From an uncultured Clostridia bacterium (lineage in GTDB: Bacteria > Bacillota > Clostridia > Christensenellales > Borkfalkiaceae), in assembly GCA_944368775.1 (NCBI GenBank), contig CALVXB010000006.1:8196-72195 (forward strand): a DNA stretch of 64,000 nucleotides, in the 5' to 3' direction. The notes beneath the pieces are model-generated. The model saw only the letters and a program-made list of their open reading frames with translations. It was not told the origin of the DNA and searched no databases. The position numbers and the translations under genes are program-made. Of this stretch, positions 1-5,470 are shown piece by piece (position 1 is the stretch's first letter; every line of letters begins with the position of its first letter).

Positions 1-885
1 TGAAAAGAACAACATCAAATATTCTGCTAATAAATCGATAGAAGTTGTAAACACATACGATATAGAAGAAACTAAAAATGTTTCATTCGTCGTATTCAGA
101 GCAAGAGAAATCTTATCTCCACGCCTTGAAGTGTCGCCAACATAGGCAAAATAGTTTGGCTGCACTAATTTATAATTTGCTAACCCTACGCCTTCCATAT
201 CTGCTTTTGTTTCAATAAACTCTTTACTCGTTGATATTCCTCTAACAGCTTCCAACCCAAGTCCTATATCGTTTCTTCTATCGCTCAAAGATAAATATTT
301 ACCTATCGGTTCGGAAGGGAGCTTTCGACGGAGGTCTTCTATGTAGCCATCGCAGACAAGTTTTAAGTCTTCCAAGCCACGCTCGTATGCCTTTTGGTTA
401 TTCACCATACCTTGATAAATATCAACATACTTTTGCTGCACCTCTATCGGCGGCAATTCAATATCAATATCACACATTTCCTTGAATGTGAATAGTTCCG
501 TTGCGCTTCCCCATGAATTTATTCTTGCATATCTATCAAATTCGTTCCTACAAAAATAAATGTATAAGTACTGTGGCAATATTTGCGATTTATCTTTTAT
601 TTTGAATCCTATATTATTAAAAGAAAATAAAAGCGAACAATTTGTATCATTGTAAGCTAATCCTACTTTTTCACCCATTCGCGTTGTGCGTGGATTATAC
701 ACAAACTCATCGGGTTGAATAATTAAAAACTTGGCTATAACATCGGCATCAATGCTAGCTTTCGTTTTCATTATTGTTTTGTGATTTGAAACGCCGCGAA
801 CAACATCTATACCATATAGCTTATCTGTATTATATCGATTAACTTCTGAAATCAACTCCCCTAACTTATAATTACTCAATGCCAT
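1..885 (-). CDS. hsdS: Type I restriction-modification specificity subunit HsdS, partial (C-terminus lies left of the window)
   Basis: My own minus-strand translation from the ATG at 885-883 is open for all 295 codons down to position 1 (MALSNYKLGELISEVNRYNTDKLYGIDVV...). It has two TRD-like halves separated by a conserved helical spacer (ELPPIEVQQKYVDIYQGMVNNQKAYERGLEDLKLVCDGYIEDL). The start overlaps the hsdM stop by 14 nt. It is missing from the ORF track only because no stop codon lies inside the window. Confidence 0.8.
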   Translation of the reverse strand, partial: MALSNYKLGELISEVNRYNTDKLYGIDVVRGVSNHKTIMKTKASIDADVIAKFLIIQPDEFVYNPRTTRMGEKVGLAYNDTNCSLLFSFNNIGFKIKDKSQILPQYLYIYFCRNEFDRYARINSWGSATELFTFKEMCDIDIELPPIEVQQKYVDIYQGMVNNQKAYERGLEDLKLVCDGYIEDLRRKLPSEPIGKYLSLSDRRNDIGLGLEAVRGISTSKEFIETKADMEGVGLANYKLVQPNYFAYVGDTSRRGDKISLALNTTNETFLVSSISYVFTTSIDLLAEYLMLFFS

Positions 886-2500
886 AGCCGATACCTTCAA
901 ATGCCTTAATTAAAAGCTGCTGCGACTGCTTTTCCTGTTCAATAACTTCCTTCATTTCATTTTGAATACGCGCCATTTCCTTGGAGAAATCGATATCAAG
1001 GTCGTGGTCAATAAACTCAATATACTTGCTGGGCGTAAGGGTATAGTTATTTGCCCTGATGCCGTTTTCGCTTTCAAGCGTAACCGCCTTGCAGTATTCG
1101 GGCACATCTTTATACAGACTTCTGTCAGCACTCTGCCAAGCAAAATACAGGTCACGAATTTTTTCTATCTGCTTACGGGAGAGCACCGTCTTTTTCTTCT
1201 TTTTATTCTTGTCAAGCACATATTCTTCGGTGTTATCGTCCCAACGGCGCAAATCGACAAACAGCACTTCATTAGTTCTGTCACGCAACATTCTGCCGTT
1301 CAGTTCGTGAGCCTTTTTGTTATTATTCAAAATCCACAGCGTTACGGAAATATCCGTTGTATAGAACATATCGCGGGGCAAAACTATAATTGCCTCCACC
1401 TTATCCCTCTCCAAAAGCTGTTTACGGATCAGATACTCCGAATTTTCGCTGCCTTCATCGTCACCGCCAGCACCTGCGTTCAGGGCGCCGTTTGCAAGGA
1501 GGAAACCGGCAATGCCGTTGCTTTCGTCCATTTTGGAGAGCATGTGCAATATCCACGCATAGTTGGCATTGGAAACTGGCGGCATAGCCCAGCCCTTGAA
1601 TCGAGGATCATTTTTAAGTTCGTCTTCGCCGCGCCACTTTTTAAGGTTGAAGGGGGGATTCGCCATAATGTAGCGAACCTTTCTATCTTTATGTAAATCT
1701 TCTGTGAACGTGGAAGCGTTCTTTTCGCCCAAATCGCAGGAGATGCCGCGGATAGACAGATTCATTTTTGCAAGGCGCCAGGTATCGGGGTTGGATTCCT
1801 GCCCGACGACGGAAACCTTTTTGCGGCTTCCCTTGTGCTCGTCCACAAAACGCATACTCTGCACAAACATACCGCCTGAACCGCAACAAGGGTCATAGAC
1901 AACGCCGTCGAACGGCTCGATCAGCTCGGTGATGAGTTCTACCACGCAGGCAGGTGTGTAAAATTCACCGTCCTCCTTGGTGCCGGAAGCGGCATAGTTT
2001 TGCAGGAAATATTCATACACCCTGCCGATCAGGTCTTCTTCCTTGAAGTGCGCCTCGTTAATTTTATTCACCTCATCGATCAGCGATTTCATCGCGGCTT
2101 TGTCGGCATTGAGCGTTACAAACAGTTGTTGGGGCAGGGCGCCTTTCAGCGGCGGATTCTTCGCCTCAATATCTGCCATTGCTTTATCGAGTTTTACGGC
2201 TATGTCGTCTGCACTTGCATTTTTCACGATATAGTTCCAGCGGCAGTGCTCGTCCAGATAGTAGACGTTCTCTGCGTTGTAAAAGGAGACCTTCTCTAAA
2301 AACACAGGCACGTCGCCAAACTGTTCTATGATTTCTTTGCGGCGGCGTTCAAACTTTACGCTTGCAAAGTTTAAAAAGCAAAGCGAAATAATGGCATCTC
2401 TCTTCTTTTCAAGGCTACCGATCGTCCTGAGTGCCACGCGGCAATTCCACAGGACGGTTTCCAACGATTGTTCTTTTGATTTTACTTCTTTCTTAGGCAT
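872..2500 (-). CDS. hsdM: Type I restriction-modification DNA methyltransferase subunit HsdM (N6-adenine)
   Basis: 542-aa ORF. SAM-binding motif I is DPCCGSGGMF and catalytic motif IV is NPPF (IMANPPFNLKKW). The N-terminal HsdM-type helical domain is present. An hsdS follows immediately. Confidence 0.93.
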   Translation of the reverse strand: MPKKEVKSKEQSLETVLWNCRVALRTIGSLEKKRDAIISLCFLNFASVKFERRRKEIIEQFGDVPVFLEKVSFYNAENVYYLDEHCRWNYIVKNASADDIAVKLDKAMADIEAKNPPLKGALPQQLFVTLNADKAAMKSLIDEVNKINEAHFKEEDLIGRVYEYFLQNYAASGTKEDGEFYTPACVVELITELIEPFDGVVYDPCCGSGGMFVQSMRFVDEHKGSRKKVSVVGQESNPDTWRLAKMNLSIRGISCDLGEKNASTFTEDLHKDRKVRYIMANPPFNLKKWRGEDELKNDPRFKGWAMPPVSNANYAWILHMLSKMDESNGIAGFLLANGALNAGAGGDDEGSENSEYLIRKQLLERDKVEAIIVLPRDMFYTTDISVTLWILNNNKKAHELNGRMLRDRTNEVLFVDLRRWDDNTEEYVLDKNKKKKKTVLSRKQIEKIRDLYFAWQSADRSLYKDVPEYCKAVTLESENGIRANNYTLTPSKYIEFIDHDLDIDFSKEMARIQNEMKEVIEQEKQSQQLLIKAFEGIGYGIE

Positions 2501-2529
2501 TTTTGTGTAAGACTCCTAATAGTGCTTAA

Positions 2530-3573
2530 CTATTTGTTTTTCTTTGATTTAATTTTTTGATTTTGCGTATACCTTTCTTTAATTTTAACCAGCCATTCAG
2601 AGTCATCAGAATGTTCAGAAATTTCATTTTTTAATTTTTTAAACGCGAATTCAGAATACTTGTGCACCTCTGTCTTTTTAGAGGTTTGTATTTCCAAATG
2701 ATACTTCTTTTCGTCTTTAAGATGAAAATACCAAATTAAAGCAGGCGTATACTTCCCCTCAATACCAAGCATAGCCGTTAAATCTTTTTGCAGATAAGGA
2801 TGACTTACGTTAGGCTCCAAATCAGGAACGGGGACTTCCTCTGCAAGGTCTATATTGCCTGTAACCATCAATACCGGCTCTCCGCCTTCTTTTAATTGTC
2901 CCTCTTTAATAAATTTAGCCTTTTTTAAAACTTGTACAACTAATTTCTTATCAATAGCGACATCCACACCGTAAGGAGTGCTTATCCTTCCATTGCTATA
3001 ATTAATAATCCCAATATTAGGAGTATTGCCAGCGCGTATTGATTCAACTAATTTAATAATGCTGTCATGTATCCTCTTTTCCCTTTCCGCTATAATGCGA
3101 TGCATTTCAGGATACTTGATTTTTTCTGTACGCGCTTTATATCTATAAAAAATATCTCCACTACTAATTGTACCGTCAACTTTAATTGCCATAACGGGTT
3201 TATCAAGACTCTCCTCAACATAGATATATCCAACCTCACCCTTTTCACAATCAACGATGCCAATATCCCACAATATCTCGGGCGAAAATCTTGAATTTAA
3301 AATTTCCGTCATTTTTTCCACAGGCAGCTCTTTAAACGCATTATTAACACCTACAATCTCCCTTGGCTTATCTTTAACTCCAAAAATAATATATCCACCT
3401 GCATTATTAGCAAATGCGGCCATAGTTTTTGCATATTTAGCCGCATTGGAATAACTGAACGATTCTTTATATTCCAAGTCGGCTCTTTCACGGCATTTCA
3501 GCTTTCCGTTTTTATCAAAAACTAAAATATGCGACTTAATGTATTCTTCATGTTTTTGACAATTATGCAACAT
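2530..3573 (-). CDS. AlbA_2 / Schlafen-like (divergent AAA) putative DNA-binding protein, function unknown
   Basis: 347-aa ORF. The N-terminal third carries the AlbA_2 hallmark as I remember it (ADLEYKESF...AKTMAAFANNAGGYIIFGVKDKPREIVGV). I do not recognise the C-terminal ~150 aa. It lies 29 nt upstream of hsdM on the same strand. Confidence 0.65.
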   Translation of the reverse strand: MLHNCQKHEEYIKSHILVFDKNGKLKCRERADLEYKESFSYSNAAKYAKTMAAFANNAGGYIIFGVKDKPREIVGVNNAFKELPVEKMTEILNSRFSPEILWDIGIVDCEKGEVGYIYVEESLDKPVMAIKVDGTISSGDIFYRYKARTEKIKYPEMHRIIAEREKRIHDSIIKLVESIRAGNTPNIGIINYSNGRISTPYGVDVAIDKKLVVQVLKKAKFIKEGQLKEGGEPVLMVTGNIDLAEEVPVPDLEPNVSHPYLQKDLTAMLGIEGKYTPALIWYFHLKDEKKYHLEIQTSKKTEVHKYSEFAFKKLKNEISEHSDDSEWLVKIKERYTQNQKIKSKKNK

Positions 3574-3599
3574 GTTTCCCCTACCTCATATCCAGCTAA

Positions 3600-4430
3600 T
3601 TATTTCCTATAAATTTCATCCAACGTTTTGCCGGCTTTGTCTTTCCATTCCGCCCAGCCGTTGATCGAGCCGCCGAGAATAAATTCTCCGGCGCCGCTAG
3701 GTGTGTTGAATTCAAGCGTAACTTTCAAGATATACTTATCCGCCTGCTGGATGATATCCCCCTTTTCAAGCAACTCTTTTCGCTGTTTGTTATACTTTTC
3801 AAGATTTGCGGGTTTTGCAAGATTGACCTCTGAACCTTCCAGCACCTGAAATTTATCACCGTCATAAACGCCGTATGCCTTAATCCCATTGCGGGTCGTA
3901 TGGAAAACAGACGATTCATTCAGGCTTGCCCTTGCGTTATCCAGCTTATAGCCCTGCGTCGCCATGATGAACTGTATTTCCTCATATACCTCTTCAATGG
4001 AGGGGAGGTCGTACTCATCAATTTCATACTTGGGCTTGACGGAGTTTTCCACCTTATAGCGATTGGATTCATGCGCTTTGATAATGGCATATTCTTCCAG
4101 TCCGCTGATCATATCGAGAGAGAATGTCTTGCTGTCGGCAAGGAACATGATTGCCTTATTCCAAAAATCTTTGGAACGGTTATGGTCGTCCAGACGGACA
4201 ACTCCGTTGCGCGTCTGCCCTATGTAGATCTGTGCGATCTTATTTTCGTCGTTTTCATTGATGAGATAGTAAATACCAGGGCGGTTGATGCCTGTGATCT
4301 TCTTTGCCTCGGCAAGCAAAGGGCGCGGAATGACATAGGTTGTCATCGTCGATAGATGACGTCTGATCGATCGGATGCCGTCGGGCCGTCCGTTATGGTA
4401 GATGGTTTCAAGTTTCTTACTTGTTGCCAT
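3600..4430 (-). CDS. GIY-YIG nuclease domain protein with C-terminal DUF4357-like module
   Basis: I chose the ATG at 4430 as the start because AGGAGG lies 7 nt upstream; the track start at 4454 has no RBS. GIY-YIG motif: PGIYYLINE...IYIGQTRNGVVRLDDHNR. The C-terminus has an NGW-containing module (GGSINGWAEWKDKAGKTLDEIY) that I recall as DUF4357. Confidence 0.7.
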   Translation of the reverse strand: MATSKKLETIYHNGRPDGIRSIRRHLSTMTTYVIPRPLLAEAKKITGINRPGIYYLINENDENKIAQIYIGQTRNGVVRLDDHNRSKDFWNKAIMFLADSKTFSLDMISGLEEYAIIKAHESNRYKVENSVKPKYEIDEYDLPSIEEVYEEIQFIMATQGYKLDNARASLNESSVFHTTRNGIKAYGVYDGDKFQVLEGSEVNLAKPANLEKYNKQRKELLEKGDIIQQADKYILKVTLEFNTPSGAGEFILGGSINGWAEWKDKAGKTLDEIYRK

Positions 4431-4641
4431 TGCTAGCCTCCTCGTTGATGACATCCATAATGTCGCCGACGTTGCAATCGAGCAGTTTGCAGATCTTTAA
4501 GAGGACGTCCATCGAAACGGTCTCATTTTTTCCGAGTTTGGCAAGCGTCGTTGTGGAAATATCTGCTTGAAGACGCATTTGCGTCTTTGTCATTCCCTTG
4601 TCGATGAGCAGTTTCCATAACTTATTGTAGCTGATTGCCAT
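4417..4641 (-). CDS. XRE-family helix-turn-helix transcriptional regulator (74 aa), candidate controller of the operon
   Basis: MAISYNKLWKLLIDKGMTKTQMRLQADISTTTLAKLGKNETVSMDVLLKICKLLDCNVGDIM is a typical Cro/C1 HTH. Start is the ATG at 4641 with a GAGGTGA RBS. The stop overlaps the next gene by 14 nt. Confidence 0.85.
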   Translation of the reverse strand: MAISYNKLWKLLIDKGMTKTQMRLQADISTTTLAKLGKNETVSMDVLLKICKLLDCNVGDIMDVINEEASNGNK

Positions 4642-4674
4642 GCTGTCACCTCGTCCAAATCGTATTACAAAATA

Positions 4675-4712
4675 ATTATAGCATATCCGCACGGGGATTT
4701 CAATAGGATATG
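4675..4712 (-). promoter_or_regulatory. Sigma-70-type promoter of the XRE/R-M operon with a flanking inverted repeat (candidate operator)
   Basis: On the minus strand: TTGAAA (4703-4698), a 17-nt spacer, then TATAAT (4680-4675), about 35 nt upstream of the HTH start. The inverted repeat GCATATCC (4681-4688) / GGATATGC (4705-4712) brackets the -35 element and spacer. Confidence 0.7.
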
Positions 4713-4870
4713 CGAAATTGCTGATATATTATTTGAAAATAGTGCGGTATCCAACCGTATCGGATTCGATACGGTTAAATATTCCTATTCCGAAAAAGGT
4801 GGCTTTCCACCTTATCTCGGAGTAGAGGGAATAGGAGCAAATCGCAAGAGCAAAACGGGGCGCACAAAAG

Positions 4871-4896
4871 AACGGCAGCCCGTATGAGCTGCCGTT
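4871..4896 (-). terminator. Hairpin terminator downstream of the collagen-like gene
   Basis: AACGGCAGC-N8-GCTGCCGTT perfect 9-bp stem. On the minus strand it is followed by CTTTTGTG. Two further strong hairpins lie at 4753-4776 and 4783-4836 (nested). Confidence 0.55.
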
Positions 4897-4930
4897 TGAC
4901 TTTGTTCCGAATGGCTTTTTCATGTTTCCC

Positions 4931-5470
4931 TTATGTTACCTGCTCTGTCGCCCCCGTCGCGCCCGTCGCTCCCGTCGGGCCTTGTAGACCCGTGGGGCCG
5001 GCGGGGCCGGTCGCTCCTTGCGGGCCGGTCGCTCCTGTCGCGCCGGGTTGGCCGGCGGGGCCTTGAGGGCCGGTGGGGCCTGTCGCTCCTGTTGCCCCCG
5101 TCGCGCCCGTCGCCCCTGTCGCTCCGGGTTGGCCGGTGGGGCCTTGCGGGCCGGTGGGGCCGGTCGCTCCCGTTGCCCCCGTCGCGCCCGTCGCCCCTGT
5201 CGCTCCGGGTTGGCCGGTGGGGCCTTGGGGGCCGGTGGGACCTTGCGGGCCGGTCGGGCCCGTCGCTCCCGTTGCTCCGGTCGGGCCTTGGGGACCGGTG
5301 GGGCCGGTCGCCCCCGTCGCGCCCGTGGGGCCTTGCGGGCCGGTCGCTCCTTGCGGGCCGGTGGGGCCGGCGGGGCCTTGCGGGCCGGTCGGGCCGGCGG
5401 GGCCCATCGAGCCGCGCAGCAGCAGCGCCGTGCGGCAGCAGCAACAGTTCAAAAATTCTTCGTCGATCAT
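4931..5470 (-). CDS. Collagen-like triple-helix repeat protein (BclA-like), 179 aa
   Basis: After a 22-aa head ([22 protein letters not shown]), an uninterrupted Gly-X-Y run follows ([22 protein letters not shown]...), ending ...[19 protein letters not shown] lies 7 nt upstream of the ATG. An internal 81-bp direct repeat is present (the same 46-mer starts at 5100 and 5181). Confidence 0.85.

What the first reader, a model, noticed from the sequence alone, without database searches (positions are those of the whole stretch)
3600..4430. GIY-YIG nuclease fused to a DUF4357-like NGW module inside the R-M operon
Seen in sequence: the N-terminus has GIYYL...YIGQT...R...H...N, the catalytic GIY-YIG layout. 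The C-terminal ~90 aa contains INGWAEWK, which I recall as the DUF4357 signature. An AGGAGG RBS is present, and the gene is translationally coupled to the upstream HTH gene.

Inference: the uncharacterised C-terminal module may be a sensor or DNA-recognition domain that directs a non-specific nuclease. That would make this a candidate effector of an undescribed defence activity.
Basis: partly seen in the sequence, partly recalled or inferred. Interest (0 to 1): 0.6.

Follow-up and report, generated by a model that had tools for sequence, protein, structure and literature searches.

The report
GIY-YIG nuclease with RAMA-like DNA-binding tail
This is a real, intact gene for a two-part DNA-cutting enzyme (a GIY-YIG nuclease joined to a fast-evolving DNA-binding tail) that leads a foreign restriction-modification operon in a chicken-gut bacterium; it belongs to a catalogued but untested family of suspected anti-phage genes, so it is a typical member and not a new kind of system.

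Summary
Window 3600-4430 (minus strand) encodes a 276-aa protein. It has a GAGGAGG ribosome-binding site and overlaps the upstream HTH gene by 14 nt. It carries a complete GIY-YIG catalytic set and a Pfam DUF4357 domain.

The C-terminal module is a DNA-binding domain of the RAMA/SAND-like kind. Its best structural matches are the two solved RAMA domains, mouse MPND and CcrM. The family is not undescribed, though:
- It matches PADLOC candidate PDC-S14 over its full length (E 1e-66).
- GIY-YIG/URI-RAMA fusions were predicted in 2016 and noted again in 2024 as possible Type IV restriction enzymes.
- No member has been tested.
- This scan has already met the family on other DNA (34 notes, at least 32 genomes).

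Three results are added here:
- Position: in 33 of 55 related gut-Clostridia loci the gene sits directly upstream of Type I R-M genes on the same strand. In the other 22 no R-M gene was found with my seed queries.
- Evolution: the nuclease half is almost frozen (omega about 0.01-0.03). The tail diversifies (30 sequence types against 6), most strongly at residues 201-240.
- Origin: the 13-kb island is low-GC foreign DNA.

Best reading (confidence 0.5): an autonomous restriction-type nuclease aimed by its variable tail.

The parts
4675..4703 (-). Promoter-like site of the operon (TTGAAA, 17 nt, TG-TATAAT)
   Evidence: This is the only 11-of-12 match in window 1-5200. It is a consensus match only. 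RNA-library contigs reach 4693 and none lies between 4694 and 4950, which is a weak hint.
4417..4641 (-). 74-aa XRE/Cro-type HTH gene, first gene of the operon
   Evidence: Pfam HTH_26 E 3.5e-19. The NCBIfam VanU-like hit is below its cut-off. A similar HTH lies upstream of the nuclease in 12-14 of the related loci.
4437..4443 (-). GAGGAGG ribosome-binding site of the nuclease gene, inside the end of the HTH gene
   Evidence: Read from the sequence. It lies 6 nt before the ATG at 4430.
3600..4430 (-). GIY-YIG/DUF4357 nuclease gene (276 aa plus stop), PDC-S14 family
4281..4430 (-). Residues 1-50: conserved N-terminal three-strand extension (G18, P35, R36 nearly invariant)
   Evidence: It is partly covered by the matches to Eco29kI, EndoII and 2lwf.
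4026..4280 (-). Residues 51-135: GIY-YIG catalytic core (Y54, Y69, G71, R79, H83, E112, N129)
3909..4025 (-). Residues 136-174: long helix (142-158) and interdomain linker; conservation drops sharply at about residue 160
3603..3908 (-). Residues 175-276: RAMA/SAND-like DNA-binding domain (Pfam DUF4357 core = residues 217-270, nt 3621-3782)
   Evidence: The conserved residues are S200, R217, P244, S245, A247, G253, G258, W262 and K263.
3711..3830 (-). Residues 201-240: hypervariable segment of the tail (loop, helix 211-223, hairpin 226-235)
   Evidence: Mean pairwise identity is 38-49% here, against 75-97% in the nuclease half, among 74 close homologues. It is also the least conserved part in the deep alignment (14-22%).
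2530..3573 (-). Schlafen/AlbA_2 protein gene (347 aa), third gene of the operon
   Evidence: Pfam SLFN_AlbA_2 E 1.2e-21. There are weak PADLOC PDC-S50 and PDC-S19 hits. tblastn at E 1e-5 found no match to this protein in any of the 80 related loci.
872..2500 (-). hsdM, Type I N6-adenine DNA methyltransferase
   Evidence: Pfam N6_Mtase E 8.8e-88 plus HsdM_N. PADLOC MTase_I E 9e-117.
1..900 (-). hsdS (the gene runs off the left end of the window)
   Evidence: Pfam Methylase_S. The full gene is L002 7956-9095.
4871..4896 (.). Two-way terminator-like hairpin at the island's upstream edge
   Evidence: The GC content jumps from 36-48% to 61-74% here. Homology to the head module of other islands ends at about 4975-5040.

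Best explanation
The gene encodes a stand-alone, single-protein DNA endonuclease of the restriction type (family PDC-S14).

Shown here:
- The N-terminal half is a catalytically complete GIY-YIG nuclease.
- The C-terminal 100 residues form a RAMA/SAND-like domain. Solved domains of that kind (mouse MPND; CcrM's C-terminal RAMA domain solved in its DNA complex) are DNA-binding, and MPND's grips the phosphate backbone of double-stranded DNA.
- The gene is transcriptionally and translationally linked to a small HTH regulator.
- It leads a horizontally acquired Type I R-M/defence operon.

Inferred:
- The tail brings the nuclease to its DNA target. Its hypervariable segment (residues 201-240) sets which DNA is accepted, either a modified base in a particular context (Type IV-like) or a particular sequence or structure.
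- The conserved SPS...G...W-K surface provides the general DNA grip.
- The enzyme then cuts foreign DNA that the neighbouring Type I system cannot restrict, giving the island a second, complementary layer of defence.
- It does not need the R-M proteins to work.
For: Nuclease half. The catalytic set is conserved in 68 diverse homologues. The model is confident (pLDDT 94.7) and has a GIY-YIG fold.

Tail.
- Pfam RAMA is hit by 61 of 68 family members at E<=1, best 7.6e-7. A tandem-DUF4357 relative passes the RAMA cut-off (60.5 bits against 35.2).
- The top structural matches of the isolated tail are the two solved RAMA domains: MPND 7ydt (Z 5.8, 27% identity over 66 residues) and CcrM 6pbd (Z 4.8). 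SAND domains follow.
- MPND's RAMA domain binds double-stranded DNA through Ser113, Ser115 and Trp135 (PMC9963953). This resembles the invariant S-P-S and W-K motifs here.

Fusion partners. DUF4357 is also fused to HEPN_Swt1, GmrSD_C and DUF4268, and occurs as 2-4 tandem copies. The literature reports fusions to GmrSD, McrB-like proteins and T5orf172. That is the pattern of a reader domain.

Evolution. There are 6 nuclease-half clusters against 30 tail clusters at 85% identity. 416 pairs have N>=90% with C<=75%, and no pair shows the reverse. Omega is 0.01-0.03 for the nuclease half against 0.18-0.26 for the tail.

Context.
- PDC-S14 E 1.3e-66.
- 33 of 55 related loci have Type I genes downstream on the same strand. 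22 of 55 have none detected, which argues for autonomy.
- Distant plasmid homologues also sit by Type I R-M or AbiE genes.
- The family is patchy: 20 of 401 genomes of the phylum.

Precedent. CMoRE/PD-T4-3 is a GIY-YIG nuclease with a C-terminal modification sensor and is a proven Type IV enzyme (PMC12923530). wH-GIY-YIG enzymes are proven 6mA-dependent enzymes (PMC11037411).

Host compatibility. The only clear N6-adenine DNA methyltransferase found in the host genome (95.5% complete) is the island's own HsdM. No Dam (D12-class) or N6_N4 methyltransferase was found.
Against: - No member of the family has been tested, so nuclease activity, defence and any modification dependence are all inferred.
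- The one biochemically studied RAMA domain (MPND) showed no preference for 6mA and no sequence preference. The tail may be only a non-specific DNA clamp.
- The structural match is moderate (Z 5.8, below the tool's caution level of about 8). Foldseek and a profile search of PDB sequences found nothing for the tail.
- The faster evolution of the tail could be relaxed constraint and not diversifying selection. Omega stays below 1 and dS is saturated for most pairs.
- Sharing an operon with an N6-adenine methyltransferase in 60% of loci is awkward for a general 6mA-dependent enzyme.
- The strictly upstream, same-strand position hints at a functional tie to the R-M system that this reading does not explain.
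Confidence: 0.5

Rival explanations
1. Guard or back-up effector of the Type I system, on the logic of PrrC. The nuclease is kept silent while the R-M complex is intact. It is released when a phage anti-restriction protein disables the complex, and then degrades DNA and aborts the infection. On this reading the variable tail would recognise the R-M complex or the phage trigger, not DNA.
For: - The gene is in the same operon as Type I genes in 33 of 55 loci, always upstream and co-directional, and often within 150 bp.
- The PrrC/EcoprrI precedent is discussed by Payne et al..
- Fast evolution of the tail would also fit an arms race with phage proteins.
Against: - In 22 of 55 loci no R-M gene was found downstream with my seeds. 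Distant homologues also occur beside unrelated genes.
- The downstream R-M types differ widely (EcoEI-type, HsdM-S fusions, Type IIG-like) while the nuclease half stays nearly identical.
- The tail matches DNA-binding domains, not protein-binding ones.
- There is no sequence similarity to PrrC or RloC.
Confidence: 0.2
2. An additional classical restriction subunit. The nuclease cuts unmodified DNA and is held off the host genome by methylation from the neighbouring N6-adenine methyltransferase, with the RAMA-like tail sensing the unmethylated or methylated state of the site.
For: RAMA was named for its association with N6A methyltransferases and the nucleases of N6A-modifying R-M systems (PMC4738411). 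A methyltransferase lies downstream in 30 of 55 loci.
Against: - The operon already has its own HsdR.
- In 25 of 55 loci no methyltransferase was found downstream.
- The same nuclease half is paired with very different methyltransferases.
- The nuclease gene comes first in the operon, which would be risky on entry into a new host.
Confidence: 0.12
3. A selfish, homing-type GIY-YIG endonuclease that promotes the spread of the R-M island, or of its own head module, by cutting genomes that lack it.
For: - Free-standing GIY-YIG homing endonucleases exist; I-TevI is a structural match at Z 5.1.
- The HTH + nuclease + about 330-390 bp upstream module is 87-98% identical in other MAGs whose flanks and downstream cargo differ.
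- Assembly graphs branch at 4777-4950.
Against: - No intron, intein or conserved target gene is interrupted.
- Upstream neighbours are often other defence-type genes (Fic, KilA-N, AbiEii), so the gene is not always at an island edge.
- The family is catalogued from embedding in defence systems.
- No recombinase lies nearby.
Confidence: 0.08

Closest known systems
PADLOC phage-defence candidate PDC-S14 (Payne, Hughes, Fineran and Jackson 2024, bioRxiv 10.1101/2024.01.29.577857)
   Same: Full-length match to model PDLC04925 (residues 1-274, E 1.3e-66), plus hits to four further PDC-S14 models. It is a single gene with the same two-domain architecture and is associated with Type I R-M.
   Different: None in kind; this is a member. 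Here the gene leads the operon (upstream of hsdM) and is not wedged between hsd genes. PDC-S14 is one of 145 untested candidates, so membership gives no mechanism.
URI(GIY-YIG)-RAMA fusion nucleases predicted by Iyer, Zhang and Aravind 2016 (PMC4738411) and noted as possible Type IV enzymes by Helbrecht et al. 2024 (PMC11037411)
   Same: GIY-YIG nuclease plus a RAMA-type domain, in an R-M context. The family hits Pfam RAMA (61 of 68 members) and the tail superposes on the solved RAMA domains.

The paper's proposed role for RAMA, discrimination of m6A marks, is its authors' suggestion and was not tested here.
   Different: This protein's own RAMA score is below the Pfam cut-off (12.1 against 35.2 bits). 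It is filed under the sister model DUF4357. No 6mA dependence has been shown for any such fusion.
CMoRE / PD-T4-3, a GIY-YIG Type IV endonuclease specific for 5hmC/5ghmC DNA (PMC12923530; PDB 9u75)
   Same: [quoted passage not shown] The nuclease domains superpose (Z 4.5, rmsd 2.7 over 78 residues).
   Different: The defining GIYxY-YIG motif is absent (GIYYL here; family consensus GxYFL). There is no PADLOC PD-T4-3 hit. The match to 9u75 covers only the nuclease half (model residues 37-130), and 9u75 is not among the listed matches of the isolated tail.
wH-GIY-YIG Type IV enzymes Ahi29725I and Apa233I (PMC11037411)
   Same: A GIY-YIG nuclease fused to a small DNA-reader domain. They are proven modification-dependent enzymes (Gm6ATC).
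   Different: The domain order is reversed.
RAMA domains of mouse MPND (7ydt) and Caulobacter CcrM (6pbd)
   Same: The best structural matches of the tail (Z 5.8 and 4.8). The MPND paper calls the CcrM C-terminal domain a RAMA domain and its closest structural homologue, and MPND binds double-stranded DNA through Ser and Trp residues.
   Different: They are attached to a deubiquitinase and a methyltransferase, not a nuclease. MPND showed no methylation or sequence preference. No sequence-level match to either was found in PDB searches.

Membership tests
GIY-YIG nuclease superfamily (Pfam PF01541) | GIY and YIG motifs 10-15 residues apart | tested here: met
   G52-I53-Y54 and Y69-I70-G71. Y54, Y69 and G71 are kept in at least 90% of 68 homologues. 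The Pfam score is 23.7 bits against a 22.6 cut-off.
GIY-YIG nuclease superfamily (Pfam PF01541) | Catalytic Arg, His/Tyr, Glu and Asn downstream of the YIG motif | tested here: met
   R79, E112 and N129 are nearly invariant, and H83 is in the family consensus (RLxxH).
GIY-YIG nuclease superfamily (Pfam PF01541) | Alpha/beta fold with a central three-stranded sheet | tested here: met
   The model (pLDDT 94.7) matches 2lwf Z 8.1, UvrC 1ycz Z 5.9, I-TevI 1ln0 Z 5.1, T4 EndoII Z 5.0 and Eco29kI Z 4.0.
GIY-YIG nuclease superfamily (Pfam PF01541) | Metal-dependent phosphodiester cleavage | not testable with these tools
   This needs purified protein.
DUF4357 (Pfam PF14267) | Score over the gathering threshold, with the conserved NGW/W motif | tested here: met
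   63.8 bits against 38.4, residues 217-270 covering the whole 54-position model. W262 is invariant.
RAMA domain (Pfam PF18755) | Sequence score over the gathering threshold (35.2 bits) | tested here: not met
   This protein scores 12.1 bits, E 0.2. At family level 61 of 68 members hit at E<=1 (best 7.6e-7), and a tandem relative (P0165) scores 60.5 bits. The relation is therefore at superfamily level.
RAMA domain (Pfam PF18755) | Fold shared with the solved RAMA domains (MPND, CcrM C-terminal domain) | tested here: inconclusive
   They are the top two matches of the isolated tail (Z 5.8 and 4.8; rmsd 3.1; 64-66 residues aligned; 27% identity to MPND). Z is moderate and Foldseek found nothing.
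RAMA domain (Pfam PF18755) | Discrimination of N6-methyladenine in DNA (a proposal, not established) | not testable with these tools
   It was not confirmed even for MPND.
PADLOC PDC-S14 | Full-length match to a PDC-S14 HMM | tested here: met
   PDLC04925 E 1.3e-66, residues 1-274 on profile positions 13-295 of 301.
PADLOC PDC-S14 | Anti-phage activity | not testable with these tools
   PDCs are untested candidates. The held papers that name PDC-S14 were seen only as titles and abstract openings, and those are genome or metagenome surveys.
CMoRE / PD-T4-3 | GIYxY-YIG motif (a third Tyr two residues after the GIY Tyr) | tested here: not met
   The sequence is G-I-Y54-Y55-L56, and the family consensus is GxYFL. 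The definition is from PMC12923530.
CMoRE / PD-T4-3 | Match to PD-T4-3 models | tested here: not met
   There was no PD-T4-3 hit at E<=0.01 in PADLOC.
Type IV (modification-dependent) restriction enzymes | Cleavage only of DNA that carries a modified base | not testable with these tools
   This is inferred only from the domain type and from precedents.
PrrC-like R-M-dependent guard nucleases | Obligate embedding in a Type I R-M operon | tested here: not met
   In 22 of 55 related loci with at least 3 kb downstream, no R-M gene was detected with 12 seed proteins. One plasmid homologue lies beside an AAA protein and AbiE genes.
Homing endonucleases of the GIY-YIG class | Residence in an intron or intein, or free-standing beside a cleavable conserved target gene | tested here: not met
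   The neighbours are R-M and defence genes. No interrupted gene was seen.

The most novel reading that the evidence does not exclude
The hypervariable 40-residue segment of the RAMA-like tail (residues 201-240) is an exchangeable specificity cassette. On this reading the family is a natural library of nucleases that share one frozen catalytic half but carry dozens of different DNA-mark or sequence specificities. Each is matched to what the co-transcribed Type I system cannot see. This would be a modular targeting principle not yet shown for any RAMA protein, and it would be the first function assigned to prokaryotic RAMA/DUF4357 domains.
Probability: 0.2. Interest if true: 0.65.

Novelty: new member of a known kind. 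Interest (0 to 1): 0.33.

Why it matters
The family is very large: 3585 cluster representatives at 50% identity. It is common in gut Clostridia and already sits in defence-prediction tools, yet no member has been tested.

If the tail proves to read a DNA modification or sequence, three things would follow:
- DUF4357/RAMA would get its first prokaryotic function.
- A proposal made in 2016, that RAMA is a base-modification reader, would be settled. The only biochemical study so far (MPND) failed to confirm it.
- A set of small single-chain nucleases with naturally varied specificities would become available as reagents.

For this window alone the result is ordinary. It is one more PDC-S14 gene on a mobile, multi-layered Type I R-M island.

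Tried and rejected
Searches that found nothing useful:
- Foldseek against the PDB gave no match at E<=0.001, with either the whole model or the isolated tail. Only VIA-align found the GIY-YIG and RAMA matches.
- Sequence and profile searches of PDB chains did not find MPND or CcrM. I used the tail alone, a tandem-DUF4357 protein and a 21-sequence tail profile. The only hits were at chance level: a WW-type peptide, a hexon, a tape-measure protein and alphavirus E1. The whole-protein profile found only SLX1, at E 0.13.
- NCBIfam has no model for the protein. PHROGs gives only an unknown-function family, phrog_12629.
- In the held library I found no experimental paper on GIY-YIG-RAMA, DUF4357 or PDC-S14.

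Tools that failed:
- The search for related loci with the 68-sequence alignment failed because no conserved stretch was long enough. The single protein was used instead, so the 80 loci are all fairly close relatives (55-99%) from gut Clostridia. They are kin, not independent samples.

Ideas considered and dropped:
- The HTH as an obligate antitoxin-like partner. It is present in only 12 of 53 upstream neighbours.
- Recent recombination at the linker as the sole cause of the domain asymmetry. dS in the nuclease half is already about 1 for the pairs with 96-98% protein identity there, so strong purifying selection is the main cause.
- A chimeric contig as the cause of the GC jump. Other MAGs show the same high-GC to low-GC pattern at the same module, and a DNA contig from another study bridges 4889-5120 without a difference.

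Expression. RNA-library contigs from one study cover the gene, but contigs cannot prove transcription.
Full report
1. What is there

The minus strand of window 3600-4430 carries a 276-codon gene. Its ATG (4428-4430) is preceded by GAGGAGG at a 6-nt spacing.

Pfam finds DUF4357 at residues 217-270 (63.8 bits) and GIY-YIG at 52-114 (23.7 bits, barely over the cut-off). The weak GIY-YIG score is backed by two other lines of evidence:
- In an alignment of 68 homologues of 26-69% identity, Y54, Y69, G71, R79, E112 and N129 are nearly invariant.
- An AlphaFold2 model of pLDDT 94.7 superposes on GIY-YIG structures: 2lwf Z 8.1, UvrC Z 5.9, I-TevI Z 5.1, T4 EndoII Z 5.0, CMoRE/PD-T4-3 Z 4.5 and Eco29kI Z 4.0.

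2. The C-terminal module

The tail is a compact domain of about 100 residues (175-276), twice the length of the Pfam model. When it is folded alone (pLDDT 94.3), its two best matches among 48,161 PDB representatives are mouse MPND (7ydt, Z 5.8, 27% identity over 66 residues) and the C-terminal domain of CcrM (6pbd, Z 4.8). SAND and Ski domains follow. MPND and CcrM are the two RAMA-domain structures named in the MPND paper.

Sequence evidence points the same way:
- 61 of 68 family members hit Pfam RAMA at E<=1, best 7.6e-7.
- A relative with tandem DUF4357 copies passes the RAMA threshold.

The Z scores are moderate. Foldseek and PDB sequence or profile searches found nothing. I therefore call this a superfamily-level relation, not membership of PF18755.

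In MPND the RAMA domain binds the backbone of double-stranded DNA through Ser113, Ser115 and Trp135. It showed no 6mA or sequence preference (PMC9963953). The invariant S-P-S, G and W-K residues of the tail look like the counterpart of that surface. This is an inference, because no residue-level superposition was available.

3. What else the domain is fused to

Among the search hits, DUF4357 occurs in several arrangements:
- as two to four tandem copies;
- fused to HEPN_Swt1;
- fused to GmrSD_C;
- with DUF4268 following it.

Published surveys list it with GIY-YIG, T5orf172, GmrSD and McrB-like proteins. Iyer et al. 2016 defined RAMA by its fusion to many nuclease folds, including URI (the GIY-YIG fold), and proposed it as a reader of m6A. 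Helbrecht et al. 2024 noted a GIY-YIG-RAMA fusion as a candidate Type IV enzyme for future study. I found no experimental work on it in the held library.

4. Family and catalogue status

The protein matches PADLOC model PDC-S14 over its full length (E 1.3e-66). PDC systems are the 145 untested candidates that Payne et al. derived from genes embedded in BREX, DISARM and Type I R-M systems.

The family is large: 2292 hits in the 90% clusters and 3585 representatives at 50%. PGAP annotates members as 'GIY-YIG nuclease family protein' on plasmids of many phyla. It is patchy, found in 20 of 401 sampled genomes of the host's phylum and in none of the 12 sampled from its class or order.

This scan has already reported the family on other DNA: 34 notes in at least 32 genomes, with the same identification.

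5. Context in this genome

The window starts 8.2 kb into contig C6. The first 13 kb of the contig form one minus-strand operon at 29-50% GC, against 57-74% for the rest of the window up to 24 kb. The gene order is:
- HTH
- GIY-YIG/DUF4357
- Schlafen/AlbA_2
- HsdM
- HsdS
- AbiJ_NTD3-Ser/Thr kinase
- KAP NTPase (PDC-S49)
- HsdR
- DUF1016/YhcG nuclease (PDC-S02)

The best promoter-like site in the first 5.2 kb lies just upstream of the HTH gene. A two-way hairpin marks the island edge.

The junction is not an assembly artefact:
- Related MAGs show the same high-GC flank followed by the same low-GC head module. That module is the HTH, the nuclease and about 330-390 bp upstream, at 87-98% nucleotide identity. 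The flanks and downstream cargo differ.
- A DNA contig from a different chicken-gut study bridges 4889-5120 without a difference.

The stretch occurs in chicken-gut metagenomes from several studies. Contigs from two metatranscriptome libraries of one study cover the HTH, the nuclease and the Schlafen gene and stop near the promoter. This is only a weak hint of transcription.

6. Context in relatives

Eighty loci from different species representatives, all gut Clostridia MAGs at 55-99% identity, were fetched.

- Of the 66 first same-strand downstream genes, 19 are HsdR-type, 11 are HsdM and 8 hit Eco57I-type methylase models.
- Of the 40 second downstream genes, 16 are N6 methyltransferases, 7 are HsdS and 5 are HsdR.
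- Representative architectures are EcoEI-type hsdR-hsdM, HsdM-HsdS fusions, long HsdM-type proteins, a Type IIG-like enzyme and a UvrD helicase.

Counted per locus with 12 seed proteins, 33 of 55 loci with at least 3 kb downstream carry Type I-like genes downstream. All 33 are on the same strand, and 21 start within 150 bp. Only one locus has such genes upstream. In 22 loci none was found with these seeds.

Upstream neighbours vary: HTH_26 in 12, KilA-N in 7, Fic in 7, AAA_14/DUF4143 in 4 and AbiEii in 2, out of 53. Distant plasmid homologues sit beside Type I R-M in Bacteroides and Salinibacter, and beside a large AAA protein and AbiE in Variovorax.

The gene is therefore a frequent but not obligate leader of R-M operons, and the HTH is a lineage-specific regulator. 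These loci are relatives, so the counts are descriptive and not a statistical test.

7. Two halves that evolve differently

Among 74 intact close homologues:
- Mean pairwise identity is 87% for residues 1-162 and 62% for residues 170-276.
- 416 pairs have at least 90% identity in the N half but at most 75% in the C half. No pair shows the reverse.
- At 85% identity the nuclease half forms 6 clusters and the tail forms 30. One nuclease cluster of 57 sequences carries 21 tail types.
- Conservation falls abruptly at about residue 160 and is lowest at 201-240 (38-49%).

Against L037, L045 and L046 the nuclease half is 96-98% identical while the tail is 51-53% identical. Nei-Gojobori estimates give omega 0.01-0.03 for the nuclease half and 0.18-0.26 for the tail. 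dS is already about 1 in the nuclease half. The contrast therefore comes mainly from extreme purifying selection on the nuclease and much looser or diversifying evolution of the tail. Exchange of tails is not excluded, because dS is higher in the tail.

In the deep alignment the DUF4357 core (241-276) is the most conserved part (47%) and residues 201-240 the least (14-22%). A conserved DNA-grip motif next to a hypervariable segment is what one expects of a targeting domain. It could also be relaxed constraint.

8. Mechanism

The best-supported reading is an autonomous restriction-type endonuclease.
- Shown: the intact nuclease, the fold type of the tail, the operon linkage and the evolutionary asymmetry.
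- Inferred: that the tail selects the DNA target, and that the protein defends against phage or plasmids.

A Type IV-like mode has precedents in CMoRE/PD-T4-3 (GIY-YIG plus a C-terminal 5hmC sensor) and in the wH-GIY-YIG enzymes. It is compatible with the host. In the 95.5%-complete genome the only clear N6-adenine DNA methyltransferase found is the island's own HsdM. No Dam-class or N6_N4-class enzyme was found.

It is not a CMoRE member, because the GIYxY motif is absent and no PD-T4-3 model is hit.

The rivals are a PrrC-like guard of the R-M complex (0.2), an extra classical restriction subunit protected by the neighbouring methylase (0.12) and a selfish homing-type nuclease (0.08). The strictly upstream, co-directional position is the observation that the main reading explains least well.

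9. Verdict

The gene is real and intact and the domain call is correct. The defence-nuclease idea is reasonable, but the family is already catalogued and the fusion already predicted in print. This is a new member of a known, untested kind, and interest is modest. The domain-asymmetry result and the polar leader position are the useful additions, and they give a direct experiment: tail swaps.

Noticed in passing
L002 6755-7954 (minus strand; contig C6, left of the window): A 399-aa AbiJ_NTD3 + Ser/Thr protein kinase gene sits between hsdS and hsdR. It has PADLOC hits to Stk2, mad6 and PD-T4-6 kinases. It is 100% identical in the Coproplasma MAG locus L037.
   Followed up: partly
L002 4823-6736 (minus strand): A 637-aa KAP-family P-loop NTPase (PADLOC PDC-S49, E 2.5e-34) is also embedded between hsdS and hsdR. 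It is only 57% identical in L037, although the flanking hsd genes are 95-100% identical, so this slot is exchanged.
   Followed up: partly
L002 615-1640 (minus strand): A DUF1016_N + YhcG PD-(D/E)xK nuclease gene (PADLOC PDC-S02, E 5e-128) follows hsdR. It is the last gene seen before the contig end.
   Followed up: no
window 2530-3573 (minus strand): A Schlafen/AlbA_2 protein lies between the nuclease and hsdM. Its C-terminal half has only weak PDC-S19 hits. tblastn at E 1e-5 found no match to it in any of the 80 related loci, so it is a cassette specific to this island variant.
   Followed up: partly
window 4650-5040: About 330-390 bp upstream of the HTH gene (promoter, hairpins) travel with the HTH-nuclease module at 87-98% identity in three other MAGs whose flanks differ. 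Assembly graphs of chicken-gut runs branch at 4777 and 4948. No recombinase gene was seen in the stretches I annotated (contig C6 1-13500).
   Followed up: partly
window 4931-5470 and onward: The high-GC genome starts with frames that have no Pfam hit. The loose ends of metagenome contigs in this repeat (GGACCTGTAGGACCTGTAGG and similar) fit a variable triplet repeat.
   Followed up: no
L062 10872-13433; L006 12862-13566: In some relatives the gene directly after the nuclease is not an R-M gene. It is a UvrD-type helicase in L062, and a DUF2290 protein placed ahead of hsdR in L006 and L007.
   Followed up: no
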